Assembly: GCF_000022265.1 (NCBI RefSeq)
Contig: NC_011979.1
Location: 2,970,001 to 3,002,000, forward strand
Reading direction: 5' to 3'
DNA length: 32,000 bases
From: Geotalea daltonii FRC-32
GTDB lineage: Bacteria > Desulfobacterota > Desulfuromonadia > Geobacterales > Geobacteraceae
Below, piece by piece: positions 6,607-21,640 of this stretch (positions are counted from its first letter, which is position 1; each line of letters starts with the position of its first letter). Under the pieces are notes generated by a model. It searched no databases and had not been told where the DNA came from. It was given only the letters and a program-made list of their open reading frames with translations. The position numbers were made by a program, and so were the translations under genes.

Positions 6607-6957
6607 TCAATGGTCCGCCACGTATCTATCGATTAACTCTTCAATCATCTCACCGATGGTGGTCCGTCTGTGGGCCGCCGCGATCTTCAGCTTCAGGTGC
6701 AGGTCCTGGCGGATATTTGCCGTCAGGCGCACATCACCTTCAGGAACCAGCCCCGATACCGCCTTTACGGTTGGCGCCTTCACCGCTCTTTTCACCGGTT
6801 TAGCAACCGGCTGCCTCTGCTTCTTTACCACCTGGTTTTGGGCCTTCTCAATTGCCTTCCTTACCGGAGCCGCTTTCTCCGCAGCCTTTTTTACCGGTGC
6901 CGGTTTGTTGATCTTCGGTATCTCGAAAAGCCCCATCTGGTTTTCCATGTCGTCCAT
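6607..6957 (-). CDS. Small DNA-binding protein: Lys/Ala/Pro-rich basic N-terminal tail plus C-terminal ribbon-helix-helix (CopG/ParG-like) domain
   Basis: The C-terminus GDVRLTANIRQDLHLKLKIAAAHRRTTIGEMIEELIDRYV fits the RHH pattern (strand, helix, helix). The start is placed at the ATG (CAT at 6955-6957) preceded by GAGGAA. The ORF extends to 7011, so the start is uncertain. Confidence 0.65.
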   Translation of the reverse strand: MDDMENQMGLFEIPKINKPAPVKKAAEKAAPVRKAIEKAQNQVVKKQRQPVAKPVKRAVKAPTVKAVSGLVPEGDVRLTANIRQDLHLKLKIAAAHRRTTIGEMIEELIDRYVADH

Positions 6958-7059
6958 ATGTTCCTCTGTTGCATCGGCAGTATTATTTGCGAGCAGGAAA
7001 TATATCAACAAATACTTACCTGTTCAAGTAATTGTGCCGCGTGAAGCAGGTTTTTTGTG

Positions 7060-7099
7060 ACGACAAGGCCTCTTTCCGGATGGGAAGGGGCCTTGTCGT
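7060..7099. repeat. Third, diverged member of the GGCCTCTTyCC...GGrAGrGGCC hairpin family
   Basis: ACGACAAGGCCtctttccggatgggaagGGCCTTGTCGT has 11-bp perfect outer arms plus inner pairing. It sits between divergent genes and has no T-tract on the side expected for a terminator. Confidence 0.5.
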
Positions 7100-7208
7100 T
7101 GGCAGAAAACATGATTAATAAAAGAATTATAAATTTTAATGTATTGAACCGGAGGCAGTATAGGCATATATTCACCCGAAATCTCAATTATCTTAATGAT
7201 ATATTTGT

Positions 7209-7244
7209 TGTAAAATTTTTTTACACTGTAAAAATTTTTTACAC
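7209..7244. promoter_or_regulatory. Two tandem AT-rich palindromes TGTAAAA-N3-TTTTACA upstream of the NfeD gene (candidate operator or promoter element)
   Basis: tgtaaaatttttttacac is directly followed by tgtaaaaattttttacac, 37-72 nt upstream of the GTG start at 7281. Confidence 0.35.
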
Positions 7245-7280
7245 TATTACTTCACCCTTTAAAAAAACGGGAGGTTTTTA

Positions 7281-7739
7281 GTGAATATATTGTGGTGGCA
7301 TTGGCTGGTGCTCGGTCTGGTTCTCATCGGTCTTGAGCTGGTCGTTCCCTCCTTCACCATCATCTGGTTCGGCCTTGGCGCGATCCTGGTCAGCATCTTC
7401 CTGGCTATTTATCCTACCTTTTCCCTTCCTCTGCAGATACTCACATGGAGCGTCGCCTCCATCGTCTTTACCTTCGTCTGGTTCCGTTTTTTCAATCCCC
7501 GCACCAGTAAGACCTTTTCCGGCTCCGCCAAAGGGACCGTCCTTGGTGAAACCGGTCTCGTTATCCGTGGCGCCGAGCCGTACACCAAGGGCACGGTCAA
7601 GTTTCAGCTGCCGCTTCTGGGGGCCGATGAATGGCCCTGCATGGCCGATGAACCCCTGGAGATCGGGGATCGGGTCAAGGTGGTGAATGTGGAAGGGCAT
7701 GTGATGAAGGTGACAAAACTCAAAAAAGGAGAAAGCTGA
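7281..7739 (+). CDS. NfeD-family membrane protein (partner of SPFH proteins)
   Basis: GTG start 6 nt after GGGAGG. The N-terminal half has hydrophobic helices and the C-terminus has an OB-like soluble domain (GTVKFQLPLLGADEWPCMADEPLEIGDRVKVVNVEG). Its stop overlaps the next ATG (TGATG). Confidence 0.85.
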   Translation: MNILWWHWLVLGLVLIGLELVVPSFTIIWFGLGAILVSIFLAIYPTFSLPLQILTWSVASIVFTFVWFRFFNPRTSKTFSGSAKGTVLGETGLVIRGAEPYTKGTVKFQLPLLGADEWPCMADEPLEIGDRVKVVNVEGHVMKVTKLKKGES

Positions 7740-8590
7740 TGAATCCAGGTACCGTTGTCTTGGCTGTTCTGTTTGCCCTGGTGGTAATAACCGTCTTCAT
7801 GGGGGTGCGGCTTGTCCCCCAAGGGTACGAATTCGTCGTCCAGCGCCTCGGCAAGTACCACACGACCCTCAAGCCGGGTCTCAATTTCATCATCCCCTAC
7901 GTGGATATCGTCGCCTACCGCCTGACCACCAAGGACATTGCCCTGGAAATCGGCGCACAGGAGGCGATTACCAAGGACAACGCCGTCATCGTCGCCAATG
8001 CCATCGCTTTTATCAAGGTCATCGATCCGGTGAAAGCGGTCTATGGCATCAGCAACTACGAGTATGCCATTCAGAACCTGGTCATGACCTCGCTTCGGGC
8101 CATCATCGGCGAGATGGAACTGGACAAGGCGCTCTCCTCCCGGGACATCATCAAGGCCCGTCTCAAGGAGATCATTTCCGATGACGTCACCGACTGGGGA
8201 ATCCTGGTCAAATCGGTTGAAATCCAGGATATCAAGCCTTCCGATTCCATGCAAAAGGCCATGGAGCAGCAGGCCACGGCCGAGCGGCTGAAAAGGGCGA
8301 TGATCCTGGAGGCGGAAGGGAAGAAGGAAGCAGTGATCAGGGAGGCCGAGGGCAAGCTGGAGGCAGCAAAGCTGGAAGCGGAGGCGCAGGTCACTCTGGC
8401 CGAGGCGTCGGCCAAGGCAATTCAGGATATTGCCGGGGCAGTGGGGGAGAAGGAGCTGCCGGCGCTGTTCCTCCTTGGGGATCGTTATGTGAATGCCATT
8501 CAAAAATTGTCTGTGTCTGCCAATGCGAAGACGTTTGTGTTGCCGGCGGATATTCTGCAAGCCGTCAAAGGGATTGCGGGAAGATCTTAG
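7739..8590 (+). CDS. SPFH/band-7 (stomatin/QmcA-like) membrane protein
   Basis: An N-terminal TM segment is followed by an SPFH core (VPQGYEFVVQRLGKYHTTLKPGLNFIIPYVD...) and an Ala/Glu-rich coiled coil (AEGKKEAVIREAEGKLEAAKLEAEAQ). It has the classic NfeD-SPFH operon arrangement. Confidence 0.9.
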   Translation: MNPGTVVLAVLFALVVITVFMGVRLVPQGYEFVVQRLGKYHTTLKPGLNFIIPYVDIVAYRLTTKDIALEIGAQEAITKDNAVIVANAIAFIKVIDPVKAVYGISNYEYAIQNLVMTSLRAIIGEMELDKALSSRDIIKARLKEIISDDVTDWGILVKSVEIQDIKPSDSMQKAMEQQATAERLKRAMILEAEGKKEAVIREAEGKLEAAKLEAEAQVTLAEASAKAIQDIAGAVGEKELPALFLLGDRYVNAIQKLSVSANAKTFVLPADILQAVKGIAGRS

Positions 8591-8755: not shown

Positions 8756-9736
8756 ATGAAAGTTTTTCTGTCACATGCTTCATCCGAAAAAAAGATGGCG
8801 AAGACTTTGCGGAGAAAGTTAGAGGTTGCCGGGCACGAGGTATCAACTTCAGATTCAATGGAGCAAGGAGATGACATTACCTCAGCCATTGGTAAGTTGA
8901 TTGAGCGTGCGGAAGCCTTCGTCATTATTGTTTCCCCTAAAGGTCTCGGTAATGAACGGCTGATGTGGGAGTGGAGAACGGTACTGGAAAATTCGTGGAA
9001 GGAGCAGGGGAGACCAATCTTCGGGGTCCTCGTGGGTAATGTGGTTCCGCCACCGTTCCTAATGGGGAGGCAGCTTGTAACGATTTCCTCCCTGGATGAT
9101 ATCGATACTGCCGCTGAACAACTTCTGGGGCGCCTTCAAGGAAATCCGATTGACGAAATGGTCGTTGAAGATCTTAAGGCGAGAGGCAGGGAGATCATTT
9201 CTCATTTATCGAGCGAGATCCAAAAATTCGAGCCAAGCCCGGAACAACTAGAAAAGCAGCGGAAACGGCTTCAAGAAAAGATTCATGAACTTTCGGCTGC
9301 ACCGGCCAGTGGGGACCTCGCACGGCTGAACCTGAAGCTGGTCAATGTGATCAAGACATTGGCCGAGAAAGGGCTGCAGGTAGATGGTGCAATTCCGTTA
9401 ATGACTAAGTCGCTTGAAATAATGGAACAGCTTCAGAATACTTCCCCGGAGCAACGGGCTGCGCTACGGACGAGGATTGCGCGGGAAATGGAAAAGGCAG
9501 GTGATTTCCAAGGTGCGCTTGAGCAAGCGTGTCGAGCGCTGCAGGTTTGTGTAGAAGAACTTGATAAGAAAGGCCCTGCTGATACGGAGTGTGACGATAA
9601 CGTTCCGGCCCTGGGATCCCTTCTTGAGCGGATCAAGGAGACTGTCGGGGAGGAAAATGTCCGTGCGGGCCGTTCCCTTGTCTCTTCATTAATTAGCAGA
9701 GCAGCAGACGGCAAAAGCAGGGGGGGGCAACAATGA
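8756..9736 (+). CDS. TIR-domain protein with long helical (coiled-coil/TPR-like) C-terminal region
   Basis: The N-terminus reads MKVFLSHASSEKKMAKTLRRKLEVAGHEV...AEAFVIIVSPKGLGNERLMWEWRTVLE. This matches the TIR pattern (beta-A FLSH, then W-E in the alpha-C position). An RBS (CAGGAG) lies upstream. The stop overlaps the next start (ATGA). Confidence 0.75.
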   Translation: MKVFLSHASSEKKMAKTLRRKLEVAGHEVSTSDSMEQGDDITSAIGKLIERAEAFVIIVSPKGLGNERLMWEWRTVLENSWKEQGRPIFGVLVGNVVPPPFLMGRQLVTISSLDDIDTAAEQLLGRLQGNPIDEMVVEDLKARGREIISHLSSEIQKFEPSPEQLEKQRKRLQEKIHELSAAPASGDLARLNLKLVNVIKTLAEKGLQVDGAIPLMTKSLEIMEQLQNTSPEQRAALRTRIAREMEKAGDFQGALEQACRALQVCVEELDKKGPADTECDDNVPALGSLLERIKETVGEENVRAGRSLVSSLISRAADGKSRGGQQ

Positions 9737-10365
9737 GTTACAAATTCCCTCATCCTGAGCTTCCCAATCCCGACAGTGAGAAATCGATTTTTATCAATTG
9801 TCCCTACGACTCCGAATATGAGCCCTTTTTCGATGCCATCATCTTTTCGGTAGTTGCATCTGGCTTCATCCCGCGAAGCGCCAAGGAATCCGAAATGATT
9901 GCTGTCAGTCGAATTGAAAGAATTCTGCATGCTTTATACACGTCCAAGTATTCCATCCACGACTTATCGAAATGTCGGTATGAAGGAAACCAAATGCTGG
10001 CTCGTTTCAACATGCCGTTGGAACTGGGTCTGGCGATGTCTCGGAGATATCCGGGGGATGGGAAGATCCTGCATAACTGGTTGGTTCTCGTTCCCACTGA
10101 CGCCCCTTACAGCAAATTCGTCTCCGATCTGTCCGGTTTCGATCTGAAGCAGTATCCTGGAAATGAAACTGAATTGATGAGAGCTCTGTTGGCCTGGTTG
10201 ATGGTCCTTCCTGGAGCCCTACCCAGGATCTGCCCAACCCCCGTCATAGAGAATTTTTTGGATTTCAAAGTCCAGAAGAAAAAACTCAAGGAGGAGTGGG
10301 GTGATGATGTACCGTGGAAATTGCTTGTCGAAGCTGCAAAGGCAACGATTCCTGACTTTGCGTAA
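9733..10365 (+). CDS. Nucleoside 2-deoxyribosyltransferase-like / TIR-like (flavodoxin-fold) domain protein
   Basis: KSIFINCPYDSEYEPFF...YTSKYSIHDLS...ARFNMPLELGLAMS follows the beta1 / alpha / (D/N)xxxELGxA layout of NDT and COG4271-type TIR-like domains. The assignment is motif-level only. Confidence 0.5.
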   Translation: MSYKFPHPELPNPDSEKSIFINCPYDSEYEPFFDAIIFSVVASGFIPRSAKESEMIAVSRIERILHALYTSKYSIHDLSKCRYEGNQMLARFNMPLELGLAMSRRYPGDGKILHNWLVLVPTDAPYSKFVSDLSGFDLKQYPGNETELMRALLAWLMVLPGALPRICPTPVIENFLDFKVQKKKLKEEWGDDVPWKLLVEAAKATIPDFA

Positions 10366-10390
10366 ACCTTAATCCAGAGGAGGAGCTAAA

Positions 10391-11278
10391 ATGTCACAAC
10401 AAGTGCACGTAACATTTATTCACGGCCTTGCCAACAAACCTGCACCAAAAGAGCTTGAGCGGATATGGCTGAATGCCCTTTCTGCCCCTGTGGTTGGTGA
10501 TCCAGGTTTTGATCTTGGAGCTGTCGGCGTAACTGCTTCCTTTGTATATTGGGCTGACCTTTTCTATGACAAGCCAATAGCCGCATCGGATTATGAAGCT
10601 GCAGCCAACCGCGCGGAGGAGCTTGATGCAGCAGTGAAACAGGATGTTAAACCGGGATGGGAAGCGAGCCTTATGCTGAAGTTGGCTGATGGAAATCAAG
10701 CGCTCAAGGATGCCCCGGTCGACGAAAGTACGGATGGATATGAACGGATACCGATCCCTTGGTTCATCAAAGAGCGTATGATGGAGCATTTCGTTCGGGA
10801 GGCCCACGACTATCTGTTCAACACGAACGGTATTAGAGACATCATCCGTCGTCGTGTTTTGGATGATTTTGCAAAGGTAGCGCCAGGGACACGCCATGTG
10901 TTGGTCGGGCATAGCCAGGGGACCTTCATAGGGTATGACGTCCTAACTGACGTGATGGATTGCAAGGAAATCGAAGGCTTCATGACCCTCGGAAGCCCGC
11001 TGGGGCTTGATGAAGTACAGGACAAACTTAACTGGTCCTGCAAAAACGGCTTTCCGTCAAAGTTGAAGGGGGACTGGGTGAACGTTTATGATCCGTTTGA
11101 TGTGATCTCTCGACCCGATCCGGCGCTGGCCAATGACTTCAAAAAGAATGGTACAGAAGCTGTGATCGATGTTAAGGAAGAGAATTGGGGCACGTGGCGC
11201 CACTCGGCAACGAAATACTTCAAGGGACCTAAGCTTCGCGCGCAGTTACGTCGGCTGTGCAAACGGGAGGGTGCCTGA
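10391..11278 (+). CDS. Alpha/beta-fold serine hydrolase (lipase/esterase-like)
   Basis: An RBS (GGAGGAG) lies upstream. The protein has HVTFIHGLANKP, the nucleophile elbow VGHSQGT, then TLGSPLG, plus candidate Asp (YDPFD) and His (WRHS) in the S-D-H order. Confidence 0.75.
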   Translation: MSQQVHVTFIHGLANKPAPKELERIWLNALSAPVVGDPGFDLGAVGVTASFVYWADLFYDKPIAASDYEAAANRAEELDAAVKQDVKPGWEASLMLKLADGNQALKDAPVDESTDGYERIPIPWFIKERMMEHFVREAHDYLFNTNGIRDIIRRRVLDDFAKVAPGTRHVLVGHSQGTFIGYDVLTDVMDCKEIEGFMTLGSPLGLDEVQDKLNWSCKNGFPSKLKGDWVNVYDPFDVISRPDPALANDFKKNGTEAVIDVKEENWGTWRHSATKYFKGPKLRAQLRRLCKREGA

Positions 11279-12795
11279 TGGAGCCGGCGTGTTTCCTGAA
11301 AGAGCTTAGGACTGCGGTAGATGAATTCAGGCACACTGATGTTGGTACTCTTCTTGATCAGGTGAACCTAGACGACTTCGACGGTGGACAAATTAAAAAG
11401 ACGCTTACGATCCTTCGTCGCAAGCGGTTGTTCCCCGAGTTGGAGGCAACAACCAAGAAGCTCATTGCCTGCGGGAAAGAAACTCCTCTGGTTCGACGCC
11501 TGCAGGTTCAAGCTCTTATTGACCAGAACATGATCGAGGAGTCTTTAGGTATATTGCAGGCTCTCCCGACGGAGCACCGTAACGATCCTCGTGAGGGACC
11601 TGAGCTCTGCGGTTTATCTGGTCGGGCATTCAAGCAGCTTTATGTGAATGGCGCGGGACGGGACAATTTGGGGAAAGCGATCCGTGAGTATAAGTCCTGT
11701 TGGACTAATCGTATGGGTGACTATCGCTGGCATGGTATCAATCTTGTTGCCCTCTTGGCACGAGCAGAACTGGATGGGATTGACATACCGGGGGGACCGA
11801 ATAGAGAATTGATTGCCAGAGAAATTCTCGGAGAAATCGACGATCTTGGGCAGAATGCTACCATCTGGGACCATGCTACTGCCATGGAAGCCTCCGTCGC
11901 GTTACTGGACACTGATGGGGCTCTCAGATGGGCAAAGGATTACGTTCGACACCCATGTGTCGACGCCTTTGAATTGGGAAGCACACTCCGGCAGATGAAG
12001 GAGGTTTGGAGGCTTTCAGGTACGGAACTCGGCAATAAACTCCTCCCTGTACTCGAATATGAATTTCTTCAGAGACAGGGCGCAGAGTTACAGGTAACAT
12101 CTCTGGCTGTAGCGGACATCGGCGGGTTTCAGGCGGTCTATGGAAATGAAGCTGCCGTACCGATAGCATGGCTGGACAACATGTTTGAGAGATGCAAGGC
12201 GGTGGGACGGGTCATTCGAACCGGAACCGGTGAGGCGATCGGGAGCGGCTTTCTTGTAAGAGGATCTGAACTGTGTCTGGGTTGGGGAGATGCGCCGGTC
12301 TTTGTTACAAATGCGCATGTGGTCAGCGACCGATCAGAAGACAATGCGCCGCTTCGATCGGGGGATGGATCGGTTGAATTTACCCGTATCTATGGGCGAC
12401 CGAGGGTAGAACTCGGAAATATCCTCCATACCTCTGCCAAAGACGAGCTAGACGTAACAGTGTTGCAGGTTAATCCTCCTTTGGGCACCTCAGTACTCAG
12501 CCCATCGTTTTATCCGCCGGTGGTTCCTGGCGAGGGACAGGCACCGCAGCGTATATACGTTATTGGACATCCTGGAGGACGGGAACTTGAAGTTACCCTC
12601 TACGACAATAGCCTAGTAGCCTGTTCTGACAACCGTTTCGTGCACTACCGCAGCCCGACAGAAGGAGGGCACTCAGGATCTCCTGTTTTTACGAGGGAAT
12701 GGAAAGCTATCGCTGTTCATCATCGGAATAGACAGGAGTTACAGGTAAACGAAGGCGTGTTATTTGGGCCAATCTGTGATGTTCTGAAGATTTAG
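11278..12795 (+). CDS. Helical TPR-like (DUF4071/TRAF-binding-domain-like) N-terminal domain fused to a trypsin-like (S1) serine protease
   Basis: The start ATG shares one nt with the preceding TGA. The C-terminal triad reads in order FVTNAHVV (His), DELDVTVLQ (Asp) and TEGGHSGSPVF (Ser). The N-terminal motifs GLSGRAFKQLY...DYRWHGINLVALLA resemble DUF4071, an assignment made from memory. Confidence 0.8.
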   Translation: MEPACFLKELRTAVDEFRHTDVGTLLDQVNLDDFDGGQIKKTLTILRRKRLFPELEATTKKLIACGKETPLVRRLQVQALIDQNMIEESLGILQALPTEHRNDPREGPELCGLSGRAFKQLYVNGAGRDNLGKAIREYKSCWTNRMGDYRWHGINLVALLARAELDGIDIPGGPNRELIAREILGEIDDLGQNATIWDHATAMEASVALLDTDGALRWAKDYVRHPCVDAFELGSTLRQMKEVWRLSGTELGNKLLPVLEYEFLQRQGAELQVTSLAVADIGGFQAVYGNEAAVPIAWLDNMFERCKAVGRVIRTGTGEAIGSGFLVRGSELCLGWGDAPVFVTNAHVVSDRSEDNAPLRSGDGSVEFTRIYGRPRVELGNILHTSAKDELDVTVLQVNPPLGTSVLSPSFYPPVVPGEGQAPQRIYVIGHPGGRELEVTLYDNSLVACSDNRFVHYRSPTEGGHSGSPVFTREWKAIAVHHRNRQELQVNEGVLFGPICDVLKI

Positions 12796-12862: not shown

Positions 12863-13384
12863 ATGGGACTGCCAAGAACGTTCGTAGGATTCAGCAGCAC
12901 TGATATCAATTATTACCGGCTGATGCAAGCGTGGAAGGCACATGAGCATATCGATTTTGATTTCGCCGATTGCCAACTTAATTCAGAAATCAATTCAGAG
13001 GATGAGACTTACATAAAGCGAAAATGCCGGGAGCGCATCAATCTGGCGGGCAAATACGCGATGCTCATTGGCGAGGATACGCGCTATAAGTATAAATATG
13101 TCAAGTGGGAGGCTGAAGTTGCAATCGAAAAGGGCTGCACGATTATCGGGGTGAACCTTGATGGGTGGAGGCGAATCAATGAAGAAACCTGTCCTCCTAT
13201 TCTAAGAAACAGAGGGGTAATGTTTGTTCCCTTTTCGCCGAAGATTGTTGCACATGCTCTTGACCATGCGCAGCTTCATGATGATAAGAATTGGGAATTC
13301 AAGGACAATGTCTATACACAGTTAGGATATGTACTCGACGGAAACCGCGCTGAGCTGCCACCCAGGCCATTTCCATTTCGGTAA
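12863..13384 (+). CDS. ThsB-like TIR domain protein (DUF1863-type)
   Basis: The start is chosen 9 nt after AAGGAG. Motifs: TFVGFSSTDINYYRLM...YKYVKWEAEVAIEKGCTIIGVNL. The ORF opens at 12836. Confidence 0.7.
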   Translation: MGLPRTFVGFSSTDINYYRLMQAWKAHEHIDFDFADCQLNSEINSEDETYIKRKCRERINLAGKYAMLIGEDTRYKYKYVKWEAEVAIEKGCTIIGVNLDGWRRINEETCPPILRNRGVMFVPFSPKIVAHALDHAQLHDDKNWEFKDNVYTQLGYVLDGNRAELPPRPFPFR

Positions 13385-13463: not shown

Positions 13464-14075
13464 ATGGCCTTATTTCGTGAGTCAACAGTAAGAGATTATG
13501 CCCAAAGAGCTTTGTCTGCTGACAGAATCCGGCGAAATGCATATTCTCTGAGGAAATCAGAAGCCCTGATTTTGGAGTCCATAACTGCGGCTGTGTATGC
13601 GGATCATTTTGACATGTTCCTGTCGCATACTATTCGAGATGCTGAGATAATTTTGGGGATGAAGGAGCTATTTGCGGAAATGGGTTACAAAGTTTACATC
13701 GACTGGATAGATGATCCGCAATTAGACAGGAGAAGTGTCAATAGAAATACTGCTGATAAAATCAGATCGAGAATGCAGCAATGCAACTCCCTGTTTTTCG
13801 TAACAACGCAGAGTTCACTTGATTCGAAATGGATGCCGTGGGAATGCGGATACTTTGACGGTATCAAAAGCAAGGTTGCAATTGTTCCAGTTGTTCAATA
13901 CTCAAGCGATGAAAAATATCGCGGTCAAGAGTATCTCGGGCTGTATCCTTACTGTGAGAAATCACCAAGTAAGGGCGGTAAAGAGTTATTGTACGTGTTT
14001 GAAGATGCTAAGAAGTACCTTCCATATGATGAATGGGTTAAGCAGTCAGAGCCAATAAAATGGTATGAAATTTAA
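13464..14075 (+). CDS. TIR domain protein with about 45-aa N-terminal extension
   Basis: FDMFLSHTIRDAE (beta-A/BB region) and SLDSKWMPWECGYFDG (alpha-C W..E motif). A GGGAG RBS lies upstream. Confidence 0.7.
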   Translation: MALFRESTVRDYAQRALSADRIRRNAYSLRKSEALILESITAAVYADHFDMFLSHTIRDAEIILGMKELFAEMGYKVYIDWIDDPQLDRRSVNRNTADKIRSRMQQCNSLFFVTTQSSLDSKWMPWECGYFDGIKSKVAIVPVVQYSSDEKYRGQEYLGLYPYCEKSPSKGGKELLYVFEDAKKYLPYDEWVKQSEPIKWYEI

Positions 14076-14167
14076 GTGGGACCGATTACGCAAACCAGAT
14101 TGAACAGGCGAGCTTGATCAGAATTACATTAAAAAAGTACGTAACTAAGGAATTAACAGAGAGGAAA

Positions 14168-15331
14168 ATGCGCATAGCTGGCGGTTTCTACAGAGAAAAT
14201 TGTTGCTTGCCTGCCTGGAATGCAGCATTTGGTTCCGGTGGTCGGGCTGCTGCAGCTATATCTAGGCTTTCTCCGGGGACTGTTCTTCATACATATTGTG
14301 AAGAGTCGGAAGACGTGCATATTCATGCGCTTAAGAAGCTTGGCGTGGATGTTCGCGTGAATTCGCGACCTACAAGTATTGTCTTCGCGTATTTTCATCC
14401 GCTGTCTCGACCCCACATTCAACCACCACCAGACATGCTCACCCTGCAACATATAATTACTATCAGCGATGAAGCCGTGTTGCGTTTTGGGTTTTTGGAG
14501 GGTGATGCAATAGTTGATGCAGATCGAGCCGTTTATGACCCCCAGACGTGGCGGAATCCGGCACCATTCAGGGCAAATGGCTCCCGTGCGAACGAGTTGG
14601 CTATTGTTCTTAACGAGCTGGAACTCAAATCCGCGACCGGCTATCAAGCTGAGCTCTCTCTGGCGGCACATCAATTAATTGAAGATCAGCAGGCAGAGCT
14701 TGTTGTTGTGAAGCGCGGAATCTGGGGTGCAACGGTTTACGAGCGGTCGGGGATAGTCACATTAATTCCCGCATATAGATCATCGCGAGTGTTTAAGATC
14801 GGTACAGGTGACGTGTTTAGCGCAATTTTCGCCCACTACTGGGCAGAGAAAAGACTGTCTGCCGCGGAGGCTGCCGATTTAGCGTCTCGGGCTGTTGCAC
14901 AATACTGCAACAGCGGCCAGTTACCAATTGATCCTGCCGAATTGGGTCAGTTTGCACCCATTCACTGCGGAACGGCAGGGACGGTTCTACTTTTGGGGGT
15001 GGCTGGTAGTCTTGGCCAGCGATACACAATGGAAGAAGCCCGTTTTGTCTTGAAAGGACTCGGCGTGGAGGTTTGCTGTCCTGTTCTGGATGGTGAATTG
15101 AGCTATTCAGCCTGTGCCGCGCTCATTCTTGCAGAGGGTGCAGATGCGGAGATTATCAGGAGCATTGAAAGCGAACCATTGCCAGGTTTACCCATGGTTG
15201 TATTGCAGGAAAAAGGTGTGCGATGTGATGAACTATTGAAAGTCCCTGCTTTAGAGAAAGCTTCAATTGTCGATGATTTTACAACGGCGATGTATACGGT
15301 GACATGGGCCGCATTAGAAACTGATAGCTGA
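14168..15331 (+). CDS. PfkB/ribokinase-family sugar or nucleoside kinase with an extra C-terminal domain of about 100 aa
   Basis: GSGGRAAAAISRL (PfkB N-terminal Gly motif) and FKIGTGDVFSAIFAHYW (the GxGD catalytic-base motif). The ATG at 14168 follows GAGAGGAAA. The ORF opens at a TTG at 14114. Residues after about 290 (TVLLLGVAGSLGQ...) have no counterpart in minimal ribokinases. Confidence 0.7.
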   Translation: MRIAGGFYRENCCLPAWNAAFGSGGRAAAAISRLSPGTVLHTYCEESEDVHIHALKKLGVDVRVNSRPTSIVFAYFHPLSRPHIQPPPDMLTLQHIITISDEAVLRFGFLEGDAIVDADRAVYDPQTWRNPAPFRANGSRANELAIVLNELELKSATGYQAELSLAAHQLIEDQQAELVVVKRGIWGATVYERSGIVTLIPAYRSSRVFKIGTGDVFSAIFAHYWAEKRLSAAEAADLASRAVAQYCNSGQLPIDPAELGQFAPIHCGTAGTVLLLGVAGSLGQRYTMEEARFVLKGLGVEVCCPVLDGELSYSACAALILAEGADAEIIRSIESEPLPGLPMVVLQEKGVRCDELLKVPALEKASIVDDFTTAMYTVTWAALETDS

Positions 15332-15344
15332 GGAAATCACACAG

Positions 15345-16748
15345 ATGGCAGACATATATATTGTGTATGCTAAAGAGAACAAAAAAATAGCAATAATGCT
15401 ATTTGAACTGTTGTCTCAGCAATGGGATGTCTGGATAGACAAAAAAATAGTCGGTTCCTTTCGTCAGGCAATAGAAAAGGAATTACCAGGCTCTGGATGT
15501 GTTGTCGCAGTAAACTCCATGGCAGCACGCGTGAAGGCTACCTATGCTGCAGAGTTGCAGATTGCAGAAAACTACAAAGTTCCCATGATACCTGTAAGAC
15601 TTGATGATTCTGATCTTCCTTACCCATTCGGCGAAAACAGTCATGTTGACATGCAAGACTGGACAGGCGAGGCTGATCACAGCGGAATTATGGAATTAAA
15701 GTGTAAATTGGCATCTGTTGTACCGCCTAGGGTACCTCCTCAACGTCCCAATGCGATAGCTGGCGGAAAAATTCCTTTACCCAATTTATTCATGTCAGTT
15801 TCTTCATTTGAAACACAAATATCACCTGCCGGAGCAGTCAGCGTACTACGGACATTTGAATCAAAAACTATTTTAGTTTCAGCCTATGATTTGGTGCCAA
15901 GATATAAGAAAGACCCTCAAGGCATTATAGATGAGTTGAAAGAGTATCAAGATAATGGCGGTTTTATATTGCTGGACTCTGGAAGCTATGAACAGACACG
16001 TTTTTCAAAAGGAAATTGGCAAAAACAAAAATTATGGAATGTGCTTCACAAAGTGCCGCATGATTGGGCTTTCTGCTTTGACATATTGAAACCGAAACAC
16101 AAGCCAGAAATGGCAATTAGCGAAATAATCGAGGCTGTAGAAAGAGAAAAAGAGTATACCAAGAGCGCTGTACTGCCCATTGTCCATGCTCCAAAATTAA
16201 AATATGGCGGTTACAAGCTAACACATTTCCCTAAGATAATCTGTGAAATTTCAGAAAAACTTCAACCGCCGTTGATAGCAGTACCTGAACGAGAATTAGG
16301 GGAGGGAATCGTTGCCAGGGCAATGGCCATACAGAGCATTAGAAAAGAACTCGATAAATTGCCATTCTACCAACCCCTCCATATTCTAGGAACAGGCAAT
16401 CCATGGAGCATACCTGTTTTTGTTGCTGCAGGCGCTGACTCATTTGATGGCCTTGAGTGGTGCAGAATGGTGGTAGATCGTGATGTGCATCGACTTCACC
16501 ATTTTCAGCATTTTGATTATTTCGTTTGCCAAAAGGGGAAAGCTGAATCACAGATTGTAAAGACAGCTCTTGATGGTAATGATTTTCAAGCAAAAGTTGT
16601 TTTCCATAACCTTGATTATTACTCTTCATTCATGGTTGAAATGAGACAATATTTAGCTGAAAATGATCTTCAGTCATTTATGGTTGGAATAATGGGGAGC
16701 CAGGCAGTAAAGCAATTAAAACAAGAAATTAAAGGGTTGTTTAGATGA
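15345..16748 (+). CDS. Fusion protein: N-terminal TIR domain + C-terminal tRNA-guanine-transglycosylase-fold (TGT/DpdA/Cap10-like) domain
   Basis: TIR part: DIYIVYAKENKKIAIMLFELL...ATYAAELQIAENYKVPMIPV. TGT part: GFILLDSGSYEQ (compare TGT LTDSGG[FY]Q) and LHILGTGNPWSIPVFVAAGADSFDGLEW (compare YLMGVGxP...GxDMFDC). I could not find the CxCxxC...H zinc motif. The gene lies 13 nt after the PfkB stop. Confidence 0.75.
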   Translation: MADIYIVYAKENKKIAIMLFELLSQQWDVWIDKKIVGSFRQAIEKELPGSGCVVAVNSMAARVKATYAAELQIAENYKVPMIPVRLDDSDLPYPFGENSHVDMQDWTGEADHSGIMELKCKLASVVPPRVPPQRPNAIAGGKIPLPNLFMSVSSFETQISPAGAVSVLRTFESKTILVSAYDLVPRYKKDPQGIIDELKEYQDNGGFILLDSGSYEQTRFSKGNWQKQKLWNVLHKVPHDWAFCFDILKPKHKPEMAISEIIEAVEREKEYTKSAVLPIVHAPKLKYGGYKLTHFPKIICEISEKLQPPLIAVPERELGEGIVARAMAIQSIRKELDKLPFYQPLHILGTGNPWSIPVFVAAGADSFDGLEWCRMVVDRDVHRLHHFQHFDYFVCQKGKAESQIVKTALDGNDFQAKVVFHNLDYYSSFMVEMRQYLAENDLQSFMVGIMGSQAVKQLKQEIKGLFR

Positions 16749-17449
16749 ATACTTCTAGCAATAGATTGAAAAATGCCGTTGCTGCTATCTGTCCTGACAT
16801 CCGTGATCGCGTAAGTAAAGCTGTAATTCCTACAGATGAGAAACGCCTCTGGTGGGAGTTATCTTCATGCATCCTGAGCAGCCAAGTCCCATATCCCCTT
16901 TCTACTGCTGCTGCGAATGCAATCAACAATGATGGCATTTTACATGACAAGTGCGTAAGTGCTACGAAACGAGCCAAGCGTTTGGAGGAGCTTTTGATCA
17001 CTCCCGTAGAGGTTGATGGCAAACAACGAGCATATCGCTTTCCTGTTGCACGAGCGCGTCAGTTGGCTGCTGCACATAGTGTGGTGATGGATAGTAAATG
17101 CACACTTCGTGAGCTCGTTAAGAGTTTCGCAACTGCCACTGAAGCCAGATGTTGGTTTGTGAAGCATGTGCCGGGTATCGGTCCGAAGCAGGCAAGCATG
17201 TTCCTGAGAAATGCCGGGGTTAGTTATGATCTGGCAATTCTGGATCGGCATGTGCTGAATTATATGACGAAGCTCGGAATGTATTCCGGTGATAACTATT
17301 CGATCTCCAGCCTTGCACAATATCGCCGCCATGAGGTTGAGCTGAAAAAACATGCTGAAGAGTTGGATTGTCAGGTCGGATTTCTTGATTGGGCTATTTG
17401 GATTGTGATGCGTGTTGCCAATCGTGTCCCGGAGGTTGCCACTGTATGA
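16745..17449 (+). CDS. HhH-GPD DNA glycosylase, Ogg2 (archaeal-type 8-oxoguanine glycosylase)-like
   Basis: VPGIGPKQASMFLRNAGVSYDLAILDRHVLNYM carries the helix-hairpin-helix GIGxK plus the downstream Asp typical of Ogg2 enzymes. ATGA overlaps occur at both ends. Confidence 0.75.
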   Translation: MNTSSNRLKNAVAAICPDIRDRVSKAVIPTDEKRLWWELSSCILSSQVPYPLSTAAANAINNDGILHDKCVSATKRAKRLEELLITPVEVDGKQRAYRFPVARARQLAAAHSVVMDSKCTLRELVKSFATATEARCWFVKHVPGIGPKQASMFLRNAGVSYDLAILDRHVLNYMTKLGMYSGDNYSISSLAQYRRHEVELKKHAEELDCQVGFLDWAIWIVMRVANRVPEVATV

Positions 17450-18036
17450 GCATCGTGACCTTGGTTTCCGGTGGACTTGATTCTACGTTGATTGCCAAAC
17501 TCGCCCAAGAAGAGGGCCTTATCCAGCATCCGCTATTTGTCGATTATGGTCAGAGGGCTCGCGATCAGGAACTGGCTGCCTGCCGCCGTGGCATGAGCGA
17601 ACTTGGTTTGCCGGAACCAAGGGTGGCTGATCTATCCGGTTTTGGGGCGCTTATACACTCAGGCCTTACTGATTCGTCACTTGATATAGTCAAGGATGCC
17701 TTTACGCCGGGTCGTAATATGCTGTTTCTCCTCATTGCAGCAGCGTATGCGGTTCAGGTAAAAGCAGACGCAATTTCAATAGGGCTTCTTCACGAAAGTA
17801 CCAGCCTATTTCCTGATCAAACCAGTGCATTTCTACGTGATGCCGAAGTACTCATCAGACGTTGCATGAACAGGGATATCAAGCTGCTCGCTCCGCTTGC
17901 CTCATTCCTCAAAACAGATGTAGTTGCCCTTGCGAAGTTGAAAAGGATTGGCGCTACCTATTCTTGCCACACAGGGAATGAGGAAACATGCGGTACATGC
18001 ATAGCTTGTCGGGAATTTGAGACGGTGGAGGTTTAA
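17446..18036 (+). CDS. QueC-like PP-loop ATPase (7-cyano-7-deazaguanine synthase family; Cap9-like)
   Basis: MSIVTLVSGGLDSTLIAK carries the SGGxDS PP-loop, and the C-terminal Cys cluster is CHTGNEETCGTCIACREF (C-x7-C-x2-C-x2-C). The start overlaps the OGG stop (ATGA). Confidence 0.8.
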   Translation: MSIVTLVSGGLDSTLIAKLAQEEGLIQHPLFVDYGQRARDQELAACRRGMSELGLPEPRVADLSGFGALIHSGLTDSSLDIVKDAFTPGRNMLFLLIAAAYAVQVKADAISIGLLHESTSLFPDQTSAFLRDAEVLIRRCMNRDIKLLAPLASFLKTDVVALAKLKRIGATYSCHTGNEETCGTCIACREFETVEV

Positions 18037-18037
18037 G

Positions 18038-18502
18038 ATGGGTGGCAACGGTGGTGGCGGTTGGAGCAGCCTTGGCGATTTACGGGCACTGGAGGAAAAG
18101 GCTAAAGCTGCACTTCAGGGCGGAAAGCGAAATGTGTTTATCAGCTTTGCCACAGAAGACATGGACGAGGTCAACCTCCTGCGTGCTCAGGCTAAGAATG
18201 AGAATAGTGATATTGAGTTTAACGATCATTCTGTGCAGGAACCGTACGAAAGCGACCGGGCCGAATATATACGGCGCAAAATCACAGAGAGAATTAACCG
18301 AACTTCGACAACAGTTGTTTACCTCTCGCAAAATACAGCACAGAGTAAATGGGTTAGGTGGGAAGTCGAGAAAAGTTTGGAGTTGGACAAAAGAGTTATT
18401 GCAGTGCATGCAGGGGATAAATTTACCGGAGACAAACCCTCGTGGTTTTCTGAAGGCATTAAAGTAGTATCTTGGTCCAAGCTTGCTGGTGAGTTGACGT
18501 AA
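18038..18502 (+). CDS. ThsB-like TIR domain protein with Gly-rich N-terminal tail
   Basis: The ATG follows GGAGG and lies 1 nt after the QueC stop. The protein starts MGGNGGGGWSSLG, then NVFISFATEDMDEVNLL ... SKWVRWEVEKSLEL. Confidence 0.75.
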   Translation: MGGNGGGGWSSLGDLRALEEKAKAALQGGKRNVFISFATEDMDEVNLLRAQAKNENSDIEFNDHSVQEPYESDRAEYIRRKITERINRTSTTVVYLSQNTAQSKWVRWEVEKSLELDKRVIAVHAGDKFTGDKPSWFSEGIKVVSWSKLAGELT

Positions 18503-19089
18503 TGGTTATAGCGAAGTGTCGTGTCACGCCTGCTATTGCTGCTCTTGCTGGTCGCCGGATTGATGTCTCGGATGCAACTATTCCTCGATTTCCACTACTT
18601 GAGGTTCAACATGTGTATAACAAGCTCCTTTATCGCTTCCGCCGAGAGAATATTCAACATCTTGTCTGCTCTGCAGCATGTGGCGCAGACATCCTTGCAC
18701 TAGAAGCAGCGAGGGAATTGGCAATTCCAGCGACAGTTGTCCTTCCCTTCTCGCCTGATATCTTTCGAGAAGTTTCCGTTACCGATCGACCAGGGGCATG
18801 GGGCAAGCGGTTTGATCATCTTGTGCAGGAAGCCAGTGATCGAGGCCGCCTTATAGACCTTCAACTTGAGGTCAGTGACGAGAACGCATTCACTGTAACC
18901 AATCACCGGATAATTGAATCTGTACTAGACCTTAGGTTTACTCGAAAGTTGGCATTTGTTGTATGGGACGGGCGGTCGCGTGGAGAAGGTGATTCTACGG
19001 CTGAATTTCTCAAAATAGCTTTGTCGCACGGACTGGAGAAAAGATGTGTTATGACAACAGGAAAGAGCTGCAGTGAAATAGTAGAATGA
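18502..19089 (+). CDS. Stand-alone SLOG-superfamily (LOG/YpsA/DprA-like Rossmannoid) domain protein
   Basis: LVCSAACGADILALEAARELAIPATVVLPF resembles the GxGxD...G-IP motif of YpsA/SLOG. FVVWDGRSRGEGDSTAEF resembles the LOG PGGxGTxxE motif. There is a TAATG overlap with the preceding TIR gene. Confidence 0.5.
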   Translation: MVIAKCRVTPAIAALAGRRIDVSDATIPRFPLLEVQHVYNKLLYRFRRENIQHLVCSAACGADILALEAARELAIPATVVLPFSPDIFREVSVTDRPGAWGKRFDHLVQEASDRGRLIDLQLEVSDENAFTVTNHRIIESVLDLRFTRKLAFVVWDGRSRGEGDSTAEFLKIALSHGLEKRCVMTTGKSCSEIVE

Positions 19090-21324: not shown

Positions 21325-21630
21325 CTAAGCTGCATTTCTGAGAGGTTTCACTTCTTGCTCGATTCGCTCAGCCAAAGTGATTTCAGCACATTCGAGATCG
21401 TATTGGGCTTGAAGATTCATCCAGCTTTGGGCGTCTGTGCCGAAGAACCGGGCAAGGCGCAAGGCGGTGTCGGCAGTGATGGCCCGTTTGCCGGCGCAGA
21501 TTTCATCGATACGGCGTTGGGGTACGCCGATGGACTTGGCAAGCCTATAGCGGGTAACGTTTAGCGGCTTTAGAAAGTCTTCAAGGAGAATTTCTCCAGG
21601 ATGTACCGGGGGAAGATCGCGTTTTATCAT
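21325..21630 (-). CDS. higA: HigA-family antitoxin (XRE-type HTH)
   Basis: MIKRDLPPVHPGEILLEDFLKPLNVTRYRLAKSIGVPQRRIDEICAGKRAITADTALRLARFFGTDAQSWMNLQAQYDL is a canonical HigA sequence. The ATG (CAT at 21628-21630) is preceded by AGGAG. The longer ORF to 21810 was rejected. Confidence 0.9.
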   Translation of the reverse strand: MIKRDLPPVHPGEILLEDFLKPLNVTRYRLAKSIGVPQRRIDEICAGKRAITADTALRLARFFGTDAQSWMNLQAQYDLECAEITLAERIEQEVKPLRNAA

Positions 21631-21640
21631 AGAAGCTCCT

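What the first reader, a model, noticed from the sequence alone, without database searches (positions are those of the whole stretch)
8756..12795. Four-gene coupled cassette: TIR-helical protein, NDT/TIR-like protein, alpha/beta hydrolase, and TPR(DUF4071-like)-trypsin protease
The junctions are an ATGA overlap, a 25-nt gap with a strong RBS, and a TGATG overlap, which indicates one operon. It combines a likely NAD- or nucleotide-processing front end (TIR plus a nucleoside 2-deoxyribosyltransferase-like fold) with two hydrolytic candidate effectors. One is a lipase/esterase with a GHSQG elbow. The other is an S1 protease with an intact His/Asp/Ser triad behind a large helical repeat domain that could act as sensor or scaffold. 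I do not recognise this four-gene composition as a named system. It resembles the nucleotide-centric conflict systems predicted by comparative genomics, but with an unusual double effector.
Basis: partly seen in the sequence, partly recalled or inferred. Interest (0 to 1): 0.7.

Follow-up and report, generated by a model that had tools for sequence, protein, structure and literature searches.

The report
Two gene pairs in TIR island
The four genes are real and their catalytic residues are intact, but they are two separate two-gene modules (a TIR protein with a new TIR/NDT-fold enzyme, and a lipase-like hydrolase with a sensor-TPR trypsin protease) lying side by side in a large TIR-signalling phage-defence island; neither module has been described or tested.

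Summary
All four ORFs, the three junctions and all four domain calls hold in Geotalea daltonii FRC-32 (C = Geob_2710).

The single four-gene system is only partly supported. Comparative genomics splits the cassette in two.

- **A-B.** A TIR gene lies directly upstream of the B family in 23 of 27 nearest genomic loci. None of 80 B-centred loci has C or D.
- **C-D.** The hydrolase is followed by the TPR-S-trypsin gene in 44 of 46 loci. None of 85 C-centred loci has B.

The order A-B-C-D recurs only in a narrow clade, but with two different C-D lineages.

B has no Pfam match. Its model has a TIR/DNPH1-like fold with an invariant Glu. C is lipase-like with an invariant Ser/Asp/His triad. D keeps His/Asp/Ser.

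D's TPR-S domain belongs to the sensor-TPR class that Yirmiya et al. report in the type VIII Thoeris effector (membership inferred, not sequence-tested). C-D is strongly enriched next to TIR genes. In its closest relatives it sits beside the downstream ThsB / TIR-TGT / Ogg / QueC block, not beside A-B.

Best model (inferred): a TIR-made nucleotide activates D through TPR-S, and D then processes C.

Verdict: a new variant of a known kind, of moderate interest.

The parts
8756..9736 (+). A: TIR domain (residues 3-124, conserved Glu72) plus a helical, TPR-like C-terminal half. It is the partner of B.
   Evidence: Pfam TIR_2 E=8e-17. E72 aligns with a Glu conserved in 79% of the TIR partners of the B family. 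An A-type TIR gene lies directly upstream of B in 23 of 27 loci.
9733..10365 (+). B: an uncharacterised family with a TIR/DrHyd(NDT)-class Rossmannoid fold and an invariant Glu97 in the motif RFNMPLELG. Predicted to be an N-glycosidase-type enzyme.
   Evidence: No Pfam, PADLOC or NCBIfam hit. 909 homologue clusters. 39 invariant columns in the alignment. AF2 pLDDT 80.6. Foldseek matches DNPH1, TIR domains and BcmB at E about 1e-3, TMt 0.68-0.74.
10391..11278 (+). C (Geob_2710): lipase-like alpha/beta hydrolase. It has an HG oxyanion motif, Ser175/Asp234 or Asp237/His271, and a variable, low-confidence insertion (about residues 70-116) followed by a conserved E118-R-x-P-x-P-x3-K127 motif in predicted coil.
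   Evidence: 100% identical to Geob_2710. Conservation in 80 sequences. AF2 pLDDT 83.9, with 53-68 over residues 71-130. Foldseek matches the Nir2 DDHD domain, A. fulgidus and B. subtilis lipases and 4o5p.
11278..12795 (+). D: N-terminal TPR-S sensor domain (about residues 40-300) fused to a trypsin-like serine protease (about residues 320-490; His347/Asp392/Ser466).
   Evidence: Pfam TPR-S E=3e-9 and Trypsin_2 E=5e-19. Triad at least 95% conserved. The TPR-S polar set G112 G115 R116 K119 Y138 N155 E204 is shared with trypsin-less TPR-S paralogues. D follows C in 44 of 46 loci.
12863..13384 (+). ThsB-like TIR protein 1, 67 nt downstream of D. A candidate signal generator for D.
   Evidence: PADLOC ThsB E=3e-41 and Pfam ThsB_TIR E=2.5e-14. 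A ThsB gene follows D in L086, L110, L170 and L175.
13464..14075 (+). ThsB-like TIR protein 2.
   Evidence: PADLOC ThsB E=1e-64. 44% identical to a TIR of the Thoeris cluster linked to types I, IV and V.
14114..15331 (+). PfkB-like kinase. It travels with the TIR-TGT block.
   Evidence: Pfam PfkB E=1.3e-6. Homologues sit next to TIR-TGT in L081, L116 and L172.
15345..16748 (+). TIR fused to a TGT (Cap10-like) domain.
   Evidence: Pfam TIR_2 E=5.6e-11 and TGT E=6.5e-9; PADLOC TGT E=2.7e-26.
16745..17449 (+). Ogg-type N-glycosylase/DNA lyase homologue (Cap11-like).
   Evidence: NCBIfam PRK01229 E=6e-29. Pfam Ogg-HhH in the homologous loci.
17389..18036 (+). QueC homologue (Cap9-like).
   Evidence: NCBIfam QueC E=7e-35. 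PADLOC QueC E=8e-27.
18017..18502 (+). ThsB-like TIR protein 3.
   Evidence: Pfam ThsB_TIR E=6e-25. PADLOC ThsB E=1e-14.

Best explanation
The four genes are two portable two-gene modules lying next to each other in a multi-TIR (Thoeris-type) defence island of Geotalea daltonii.

**Module 1 (A-B).** An apparently active TIR protein is translationally coupled to an enzyme of a new TIR/DrHyd(NDT)-fold family. The proposal, which is inferred, is that A senses infection and makes or relays an NAD-derived product. B would then act as the N-glycosidase partner, either as an effector that degrades NAD+ or nucleotides, or as a co-generator of the signal.

**Module 2 (C-D).** This is a near-obligate pair. 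D carries the TPR-S sensor domain, the same class of TPR that Yirmiya et al. report in the cADPR-responsive type VIII Thoeris effector ThsI. In D it is fused to a trypsin-like protease. C is a cytoplasmic lipase-like hydrolase.

Proposed chain for module 2 (inferred, not shown):
1. Neighbouring TIR enzymes (ThsB1-3, TIR-TGT and possibly A) produce an ADP-ribose-derived signal on infection.
2. The signal binds the conserved polar pocket of TPR-S.
3. The protease domain is switched on.
4. D cleaves C in or beside its variable, disordered insertion, releasing lipase activity.
5. Membrane damage aborts the infection.

A-B is not needed for C-D. The two modules are alternative or additive cassettes that plug into the same TIR-signalling island.
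For: **Shown**
- The A-B pair is tight. A TIR gene lies directly upstream of B in 23 of 27 loci, with gaps of -68 to +40 nt.
- The C-D pair is tight. D follows C in 44 of 46 loci, and C precedes D in 3 of 3 D-centred plasmid loci.
- The modules are independent. Profile HMMs find no C-like ORF in the 80 B-centred genome loci and no B-like ORF in the 85 C-centred loci. C's nearest relatives L170-L172 lack A-B.
- TIR genes are enriched around C-D. 16 of 35 loci of at least 6 kb have a TIR gene in the flanks: 30 TIR genes in 316 kb, against about 4 non-partner TIR genes in 1 Mb of the B set. A TIR gene lies within 600 bp upstream in 8 of 49 loci and downstream in 5 of 35. Some of these TIRs resemble type VIII Thoeris TIRs (E=1e-24 to 2e-22).
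- The TPR-S polar constellation is conserved across D and 10 trypsin-less TPR-S proteins. This fits a common small ligand better than varied phage proteins.
- All catalytic sets are conserved.

**Literature**
- The ThsI TPR is proposed to perceive cADPR, and this TPR was predicted by Burroughs and Aravind to act in TIR signalling (10.64898/2025.12.03.692087).
- Thoeris operons with cap9, cap10 and cap11 exist.
- An upstream pro-nuclease activated by a downstream trypsin-like fusion is established (10.1101/2025.07.28.667249).
- Alpha/beta hydrolases obligatorily paired with caspase-like peptidases were noted in conflict systems (PMC7159879).

**Supporting the zymogen idea**
- C has a 0-85-residue variable, low-pLDDT insertion followed by E118/P121/P123 (99%) and K127 (95%) in predicted coil.
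- A leaderless GH108 muramidase gene sits directly upstream of C in about 8 loci. This points to an envelope-lytic output.
Against: - About half of the C-D loci with long flanks have no TIR gene. Some plasmid copies stand alone. C-D may therefore sense its trigger directly.
- No binding, cleavage or defence data exist for any of the four families.
- I could not compare D's TPR-S with ThsI sequences, because they are not held here.
- B shows no profile-level similarity to TIR alignments (hhalign probability below 1%). Its Foldseek E-values are weak (about 1e-3), so its enzymology is inferred from fold and one Glu.
- The A-B-C-D order recurs with two distinct C-D clades. This could mean that A-B does feed C-D in this clade.
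- The proposed cleavage site in C is only a conserved motif in a predicted loop.
Confidence: 0.5

Rival explanations
1. One reading: A-B-C-D is one integrated four-gene system. TIR plus the NDT-like enzyme would be a dedicated signal-generating front end, and C and D would be two dedicated effectors.
For: - All four genes are co-directional and tightly packed, with no terminator-like site between them.
- The same order is found in L081/L082, L086/L087 and L175/L176.
- The window's C-D belongs to a different clade (76% identity to the AB-less L170/L172) from the C-D of L086/L175 (37%). The juxtaposition was therefore either assembled twice or kept through a module swap.
Against: - 0 of 80 B-centred loci have C or D, and 0 of 85 C-centred loci have A or B.
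- C's nearest relatives have C-D with other TIR genes and no A-B.
- A-B occurs alone (L089, L178) or beside other TPR-S genes (L083, L177).
- The single non-overlapping junction is the one between B and C.
Confidence: 0.15
2. C-D is a self-contained sensor-effector pair that detects a phage protein directly through the TPR-S repeats. This would be like Avs-type or other repeat-based sensors. The TIR genes nearby would then be unrelated systems sharing a defence island.
For: - 19 of 35 long loci have no TIR gene in the flanks.
- Stand-alone copies sit on Agrobacterium and Rhizobium plasmids.
- TPR repeats commonly bind proteins.
- Liu et al. counted 29 of 78 TPR-core operons without a TIR gene.
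Against: - The recurrent neighbours are specifically TIR, TPR-S and STAND genes, not a general mix of defence genes.
- TIR gene density near C-D is about 25 times that in the control set.
- TPR-S keeps an invariant polar residue set even in paralogues with other architectures. This is unlike fast-evolving protein-recognition surfaces.
- A TPR of this class in ThsI responds to cADPR, according to the authors' proposal.
Confidence: 0.25
3. C and D are parallel, independent effectors, or C is a regulator such as an esterase that removes a signal or a modification. Under this reading D kills by indiscriminate proteolysis, as the type IV Thoeris caspase-like effector does, and there is no protease-to-zymogen cascade.
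For: - The type IV Thoeris protease cleaves cellular proteins indiscriminately.
- Nothing here shows that C is cleaved.
- C's core model looks like a complete hydrolase.
Against: - The near-obligate order C then D, with overlapping stop and start codons, mirrors the proven pro-nuclease/protease pairs.
- C has a variable insertion followed by a conserved motif in a predicted loop.
Confidence: 0.2

Closest known systems
Type VIII Thoeris (ThsB TIR + ThsI, a CMP-hydrolase/DrHyd domain fused to a TPR; signal is canonical cADPR), Yirmiya et al. 2025; TIR/TPR systems predicted by Burroughs and Aravind 2020; BcTir/BcTpr (Liu et al. 2023)
   Same: - D carries a Pfam TPR-S sensor TPR and lies next to ThsB-type TIR genes.
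- The island also holds a DrHyd-fold protein (B) coupled to a TIR gene.
- TIRs next to some C-D pairs resemble type VIII TIRs.
   Different: - In D the TPR-S is fused to a trypsin-like protease, not to a glycosidase, and D has an obligate alpha/beta-hydrolase partner.
- B is a separate protein without TPR-S and does not match the NDT Pfam models.
- The TIR gene is not always present.
Type IV Thoeris (TIR + caspase-like protease activated by N7-cADPR)
   Same: The logic is the same: a TIR-made nucleotide switches on a protease effector.
   Different: - The protease fold differs (trypsin versus caspase).
- The sensor domain differs.
- A second hydrolase gene is always present.
Nuclease-protease zymogen pairs of Hachiman, AVAST, Lamassu and DRT (HamM-type MBL nuclease + trypsin-like fusion), 10.1101/2025.07.28.667249
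   Same: [quoted passage not shown]
- The pair is portable between systems.
- The effector carries a variable insertion with a conserved site.
   Different: - The effector is a lipase-like alpha/beta hydrolase, not an MBL nuclease.
- The protease is C-terminal to its partner domain.
- Cleavage is untested.
Alpha/beta-hydrolase-caspase pairings in MoxR-vWA and GAP1 conflict systems (Kaur et al. 2020, PMC7159879)
   Same: A peptidase is obligatorily coupled to an alpha/beta hydrolase in a conflict-system context.
   Different: - The peptidase here is trypsin-like, and no NTPase core is present.
- The 370-aa gene next to a CHAT gene in L089 is not C-like by HMM.
DNPH1/Rcl, nucleoside 2-deoxyribosyltransferases, BcmB and TIR domains (the TIR-DrHyd-SLOG Rossmannoid class)
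   Same: B shares the fold, and its Glu sits at the start of the helix after strand 3.
   Different: - No sequence-profile similarity.
- B has an extra C-terminal three-helix subdomain.
- B has its own motifs: FINCPYD, SIHDLS and HDWLVLVP.

Membership tests
Thoeris (TIR-signalling defence system) | A TIR-domain protein with the catalytic Glu | tested here: met
   A: TIR_2 E=8e-17 with E72 at the conserved position. ThsB1, ThsB2 and ThsB3 match PADLOC ThsB models.
Thoeris (TIR-signalling defence system) | An effector gene consistently adjacent to the TIR gene | tested here: inconclusive
   - A-B: the TIR gene is adjacent in 23 of 27 loci.
- C-D: a TIR gene lies within 600 bp upstream in only 8 of 49 loci and downstream in 5 of 35, although TIR genes are enriched about 25-fold in the flanks.
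Thoeris (TIR-signalling defence system) | The effector is recognised by existing defence-system models | tested here: not met
   PADLOC-DB 2.0: no hit for B or C, and only E>=7e-4 protease hits for D. NCBIfam: none.
Thoeris (TIR-signalling defence system) | Phage-triggered signal production and signal-dependent activation of the effector | not testable with these tools
   Needs infection assays and LC-MS.
Type VIII Thoeris (ThsI) | A sensor TPR (TPR-S class) in the effector | tested here: met
   D matches Pfam TPR-S PF20308 at E=3.4e-9, 37.6 bits against a cut-off of 27.6. That ThsI's TPR belongs to this class is taken and was not tested by sequence.
Type VIII Thoeris (ThsI) | A CMP-hydrolase/DrHyd domain fused to the TPR | tested here: not met
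   D's catalytic domain is Trypsin_2. B has the DrHyd-like fold but is a separate protein without TPR-S.
Protease-activated zymogen effector pair (HamM-type) | The effector gene lies immediately upstream of a trypsin-like protease fusion, as a conserved pair | tested here: met
   44 of 46 loci, with overlapping or nearly abutting stop and start codons.
Protease-activated zymogen effector pair (HamM-type) | The effector is an MBL-fold nuclease | tested here: not met
   C is an alpha/beta hydrolase.
Protease-activated zymogen effector pair (HamM-type) | An autoinhibitory insertion with a conserved cleavage site; activity depends on cleavage | tested here: inconclusive
   C has a variable low-pLDDT insertion (residues 70-116) followed by a conserved ExxPxP...K motif in predicted coil. 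Cleavage cannot be tested here.
TIR/DrHyd (NDT) superfamily, for B | A five-stranded Rossmannoid fold with a Glu after strand 3 | tested here: met
   AF2 pLDDT 80.6. Foldseek matches DNPH1 at E=8e-4 with TMt 0.68-0.74, and TIR domains. E97 is invariant in 32 sequences.
TIR/DrHyd (NDT) superfamily, for B | A sequence-profile match to Nuc_deoxyrib_tr or TIR models | tested here: not met
   No Pfam hit at E<=0.1. The PDB profile search finds nothing. hhalign against TIR alignments gives probability below 1%.
Alpha/beta hydrolase (lipase-like), for C | GxSxG nucleophile elbow, Ser/Asp/His triad and HG oxyanion motif | tested here: met
   S175, D234/D237 and H271 are 100% conserved and H11-G12 97% conserved in 80 sequences. 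Fold matches are to lipases and the DDHD domain. Pfam Abhydrolase_6 scores only 19.1 bits, below its cut-off of 26.3.
S1-type trypsin-like peptidase (Trypsin_2), for D | A Pfam match above the cut-off and a conserved His/Asp/Ser triad | tested here: met
   69.9 bits against a cut-off of 27.6. H347, D392 and S466 are at least 95% conserved.
NTP-dependent ternary conflict systems (Kaur et al. 2020) | A MoxR-vWA, STAND or GTPase core component within the operon | tested here: not met
   None among A-D. STAND genes occur only as variable neighbours in other loci.

The most novel reading that the evidence does not exclude
C-D is a new class of TIR-signal-responsive effector. A TIR-derived ADP-ribose nucleotide would bind the TPR-S domain and switch on a trypsin-like protease. 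The protease would then proteolytically mature a cytoplasmic pro-lipase, and in some loci also a leaderless GH108 muramidase. The result would be a signal-to-protease-to-lytic-enzyme suicide cascade in bacteria. In parallel, the B family would be a previously unrecognised branch of the TIR/DrHyd class serving as the enzymatic partner of TIR proteins in a separate, new Thoeris type.
Probability: 0.25. Interest if true: 0.8.

Novelty: new variant of a known kind. Interest (0 to 1): 0.55.

Why it matters
- **C-D.** If C-D responds to TIR signals, it adds a two-step proteolytic cascade to Thoeris-type immunity: nucleotide, then protease, then lipase. It would also show that the TPR-S sensor is a portable receiver that can drive unrelated effectors.
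- **B.** The B family has more than 900 clusters and no Pfam model. It is a well-conserved, unannotated enzyme tightly coupled to TIR genes across Acidobacteriota, Proteobacteria, Chlorobiota and Actinomycetota. That makes it a clear candidate for a new TIR-partner chemistry.
- **Testability.** Both pairs are small (1.6 and 2.4 kb), and the active-site residues to mutate are defined.
- **Annotation.** The result corrects the unit of annotation. Defence-finder models should be built for the two pairs, not for the quartet.

Tried and rejected
- **Sequence-family searches for B and C.** Pfam, PADLOC, NCBIfam and the PDB by sequence and by profile gave nothing usable.
- **B against TIR/ThsB alignments by hhalign.** Not significant. 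B's assignment therefore rests on fold alone.
- **The alpha/beta-hydrolase partner of caspases (Kaur 2020).** I asked whether it is the C family. The 370-aa gene next to CHAT in L089 is not C-like.
- **Burroughs and Aravind 2020.** The paper is not held. TPR-S is cited through Pfam's family name and through two papers that describe it. A text search for 'TPR-S' found nothing relevant.
- **Yirmiya et al. supplementary tables.** I searched for trypsin, peptidase, protease and Geobacter and found no entry. The main table is truncated in the held copy, so absence is not proven.
- **Boundaries.** The promoter and terminator scan gave no informative internal boundary. There is no tRNA in the window.
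- **Ternary NTPase system.** Rejected because there is no NTPase among A-D.
- **Secreted toxins.** C, D and the GH108 partners have no signal peptide by inspection of their N-termini. The cytoplasmic reading was kept.

Full report
**1. Observation**

The window comes from Geotalea daltonii FRC-32: protein C is 100% identical to Geob_2710.

All four ORFs exist as described:
- A: 8756-9736
- B: 9733-10365
- C: 10391-11278
- D: 11278-12795

The three junctions were read directly from the sequence:
- an ATGA overlap;
- a 25-nt gap containing GAGGAGG;
- a TGATG overlap.

The cassette has a lower GC content (0.48-0.52) than the flanks (0.56-0.60). It is the first part of a co-directional gene block that runs to about 20.8 kb.

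**2. What each protein is**

*Protein A*
- It has a TIR_2 domain (E=8e-17), followed by a helical half with only weak TPR-type hits.
- Its Glu72 aligns with the Glu conserved in 79% of related TIR proteins.

*Protein B*
- It matches nothing in Pfam, PADLOC, NCBIfam or the PDB by sequence.
- It nevertheless belongs to a large and strongly conserved family: 909 clusters, and 39 invariant columns among 32 diverse members.
- The AlphaFold2 model (pLDDT 80.6) is a five-stranded Rossmannoid domain with a C-terminal helical subdomain.
- Foldseek places it with DNPH1/Rcl, SPARTA and plant TIR domains, AbTir and the CMP N-glycosidase BcmB (E about 1e-3, TMt up to 0.74).
- The invariant Glu97, in the motif RFNMPLELG after strand 3 (SIHDLS), sits where NDT-family and TIR enzymes carry their catalytic Glu. 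That correspondence is my reading of the model's secondary structure and the family motifs.
- Profile-profile comparison with TIR alignments is not significant. The assignment is therefore at fold level only.

*Protein C*
- It is an alpha/beta hydrolase.
- H11-G12, H174-S175-x-G177, D234/D237 and H271 are 97-100% conserved in 80 homologues.
- The model (pLDDT 83.9) resembles the Nir2 DDHD domain, archaeal and Bacillus lipases, and 4o5p.
- Between the core strands lies a variable insertion (about residues 70-116). No position in it reaches 85% conservation, and its pLDDT is 53-68.
- The insertion is followed by E118, P121 and P123 (99%) and K127 (95%) in predicted coil.

*Protein D*
- It has a TPR-S domain (E=3e-9) with a weak MAP3K_TRAF_bd (formerly DUF4071) hit, and a Trypsin_2 domain (E=5e-19).
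- His347, Asp392 and Ser466 are at least 95% conserved in 35 homologues.

**3. Synteny splits the cassette in two**

*Scan centred on B.* This covered representative genomes and returned 80 loci.
- A TIR gene lies immediately upstream of B, on the same strand, in 23 of the 27 closest loci where B could be called. The gaps range from -68 to +40 nt.
- No C or D homologue was found in any of the 80 loci, by tblastn or by profile HMM.
- In a more distant B subfamily, a small DUF2188 gene takes the place of the TIR gene.

*Scan centred on C.* This covered metagenomes and returned 80 loci.
- D follows C in 44 of the 46 loci that have enough downstream DNA. The stop and start codons usually overlap or nearly abut.
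- None of 85 C-centred loci has an A- or B-like ORF.
- Three plasmid loci found by searching with D also have C upstream. RefSeq or GenBank annotates the pair only as 'hypothetical protein' plus a generic protease name ('serine protease', or 'peptidase cysteine/serine trypsin-like domain-containing protein' in R. etli).

*C's closest relatives.* At 76-78% identity, these carry C-D without A-B:
- L170: C-D-ThsB-TIR(1529 aa)-TIR-TPR-S.
- L171: TPR-S, TIR, C, D, with TIR-TGT/Ogg/QueC/ThsB on the opposite strand.
- L172: C-D-PfkB-TIR-TGT-Ogg-QueC-ThsB-TPR-S-TIR.

The real units are therefore the pairs A-B and C-D. The only non-overlapping junction in the window lies between them.

**4. The quartet still recurs**

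Among seven sampled lineages whose B is 52-93% identical to the window's B and whose TIR partner is the long TIR-TPR form:
- three have the order A-B-C-D: the window with L081/L082, L086/L087 and L175/L176;
- the other four have A-B alone or beside other TIR or TPR-S genes: L083, L089, L177 and L178.

The window's C-D is 76% and 68-77% identical to the AB-less L170 and L172. It is only 37% and 32-34% identical to the C-D of L086 and L175. The same order therefore involves two different C-D clades.

This could reflect a functional link within this clade. It could also reflect repeated insertion or swapping of modules at one position in a shared island backbone. L083 and L170 share the downstream set ThsB, a TIR protein of about 1530 aa, a TIR protein of about 280 aa, and TPR-S. 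L083 has A-B where L170 has C-D. That supports interchangeable cassettes.

**5. Context**

Downstream in the window lie the following:
- two ThsB-type TIR genes;
- a PfkB-like kinase;
- a TIR-TGT fusion;
- an Ogg-type glycosylase;
- QueC;
- a third ThsB gene.

The TGT/Ogg/QueC set corresponds to Cap10/Cap11/Cap9. Yirmiya et al. report Thoeris operons carrying exactly these ancillary genes (10.64898/2025.12.03.692087). The same block lies beside C-D in L116, L171, L172 and L175.

Across C-D loci of at least 6 kb, 16 of 35 have TIR genes in the flanks. That is 30 TIR genes in 316 kb, against about 4 non-partner TIR genes in 1 Mb of B-centred loci. The other recurrent neighbours are:
- trypsin-less TPR-S proteins;
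- nSTAND1-WD40 proteins;
- a leaderless GH108 muramidase directly upstream of C, in about seven metagenome loci and on a Sinorhizobium plasmid.

**6. Relation to what is known**

Yirmiya et al. show that the type VIII Thoeris effector ThsI (a CMP hydrolase plus a TPR) is activated by canonical cADPR. They propose that the TPR perceives the signal. They also note that Burroughs and Aravind (2020) had predicted this TPR to act in TIR signalling. Liu et al. describe the same TIR/TPR operon class. I could not read the 2020 paper.

D carries this sensor-class TPR fused to a protease instead of a glycosidase. The set G112, G115, R116, K119, Y138, N155 and E204 is conserved in the D family and in 8-10 of 10 trypsin-less TPR-S paralogues. 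This fits a shared small-molecule pocket.

There are three relevant precedents:
- An upstream pro-enzyme activated by a downstream trypsin-like fusion: the nuclease-protease pairs of Hachiman and AVAST.
- A TIR signal switching on a protease: type IV Thoeris.
- Obligate pairing of an alpha/beta hydrolase with a peptidase: Kaur et al. 2020, with caspases.

I found no paper or model that describes either the C-D pair or the B family.

**7. Mechanism**

*Shown:*
- two conserved, translationally coupled pairs;
- intact catalytic residues in all four proteins;
- a TPR-S domain in D;
- enrichment of TIR genes around C-D.

*Inferred:*
- TIR enzymes in the island make an ADPR-derived signal.
- TPR-S binds it.
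- D is activated and cleaves C near its variable insertion.
- The released lipase damages the membrane and aborts the infection. Where a GH108 muramidase is present, it would contribute.
- For A-B, the TIR protein and the DrHyd-fold enzyme act as a signal-generator and effector pair, or as a two-enzyme NAD-processing pair.

My confidence levels:

| Claim | Confidence |
|---|---|
| Two-module architecture | about 0.85 |
| C-D is responsive to TIR signals | about 0.45-0.5 |
| D activates C by cleavage | about 0.3 |
| Obligate four-gene system | about 0.15 |

**8. Verdict**

- This is a new variant of a known kind: a TPR-S-centred, Thoeris-type island with an undescribed protease-lipase effector pair and an undescribed TIR-partner enzyme family.
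- Interest is moderate (0.55). Both pairs are widespread, unannotated and easy to test. The overall logic, however, fits frameworks that already exist.

Noticed in passing
window 14114-18502: This stretch holds a PfkB-like kinase, a TIR-TGT fusion (Cap10-like), an Ogg-type glycosylase (Cap11-like), QueC (Cap9-like) and a third ThsB gene. It looks like a Thoeris operon with type IV CBASS-style deazaguanylation ancillary genes. The same block lies beside C-D in L116, L171, L172 and L175. The conserved PfkB-like partner is not mentioned in the paper describing such operons.
   Followed up: partly
L113 3715-4368, L120 446-1057, L126 4483-5097, L173 4266-4886 and others: A leaderless GH108 + PG_binding_3 muramidase gene sits directly upstream of the C-D pair in about seven metagenome loci and on Sinorhizobium plasmid pK101b. 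This suggests a three-enzyme envelope-lytic output: muramidase, lipase and protease.
   Followed up: partly
L039 7741-7995, L070 7517-7918 and 9 other loci of L037-L080: In the more distant B subfamily, a small DUF2188 gene overlaps the start of B in place of the TIR gene. DUF2188 is listed as a putative Thoeris effector by Yirmiya et al. TIR, DUF2188 and B are therefore linked pairwise.
   Followed up: partly
window 12863-13384 vs L083 2050-2517 and L086 4602-5072: ThsB1 is 77% identical between islands whose A (28%), C (38%) and D (32%) are far more diverged. This points either to much stronger constraint on ThsB1 or to recent exchange of this one gene.
   Followed up: no
window 18502-19089, 19207-20058, 20188-20790: Three co-directional ORFs (195, 283 and 200 aa) end the island. 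They have no Pfam or PADLOC match and could be further effectors.
   Followed up: partly
window 2-6283: A 2093-aa ORF. The first part has tandem modules of about 90 aa rich in Thr, Ser, Ala and Val. The second part has many CxxCH haem-binding motifs. It appears to be a giant surface multihaem cytochrome, which I know to be typical of Geobacteraceae.
   Followed up: no
window 6607-8590 and 21325-21810: The low-GC island is bracketed by a ParG-like gene (- strand) and an NfeD / SPFH-Band 7 pair upstream, and by an HTH_3 regulator (- strand) downstream. No tRNA or integrase was seen in the window. Related islands lie next to integrases (L172) or ParB/RepB genes (L171, L179).
   Followed up: partly
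L083 8067-10013, L170 17428-18753, L171 6385-7761, L172 15829-17154, L177 4476-5900: Trypsin-less TPR-S/MAP3K_TRAF_bd proteins (441-648 aa) recur beside TIR genes in the same islands. In L177 one follows a calcineurin-like Metallophos gene. Their N-terminal regions are unannotated.
   Followed up: partly
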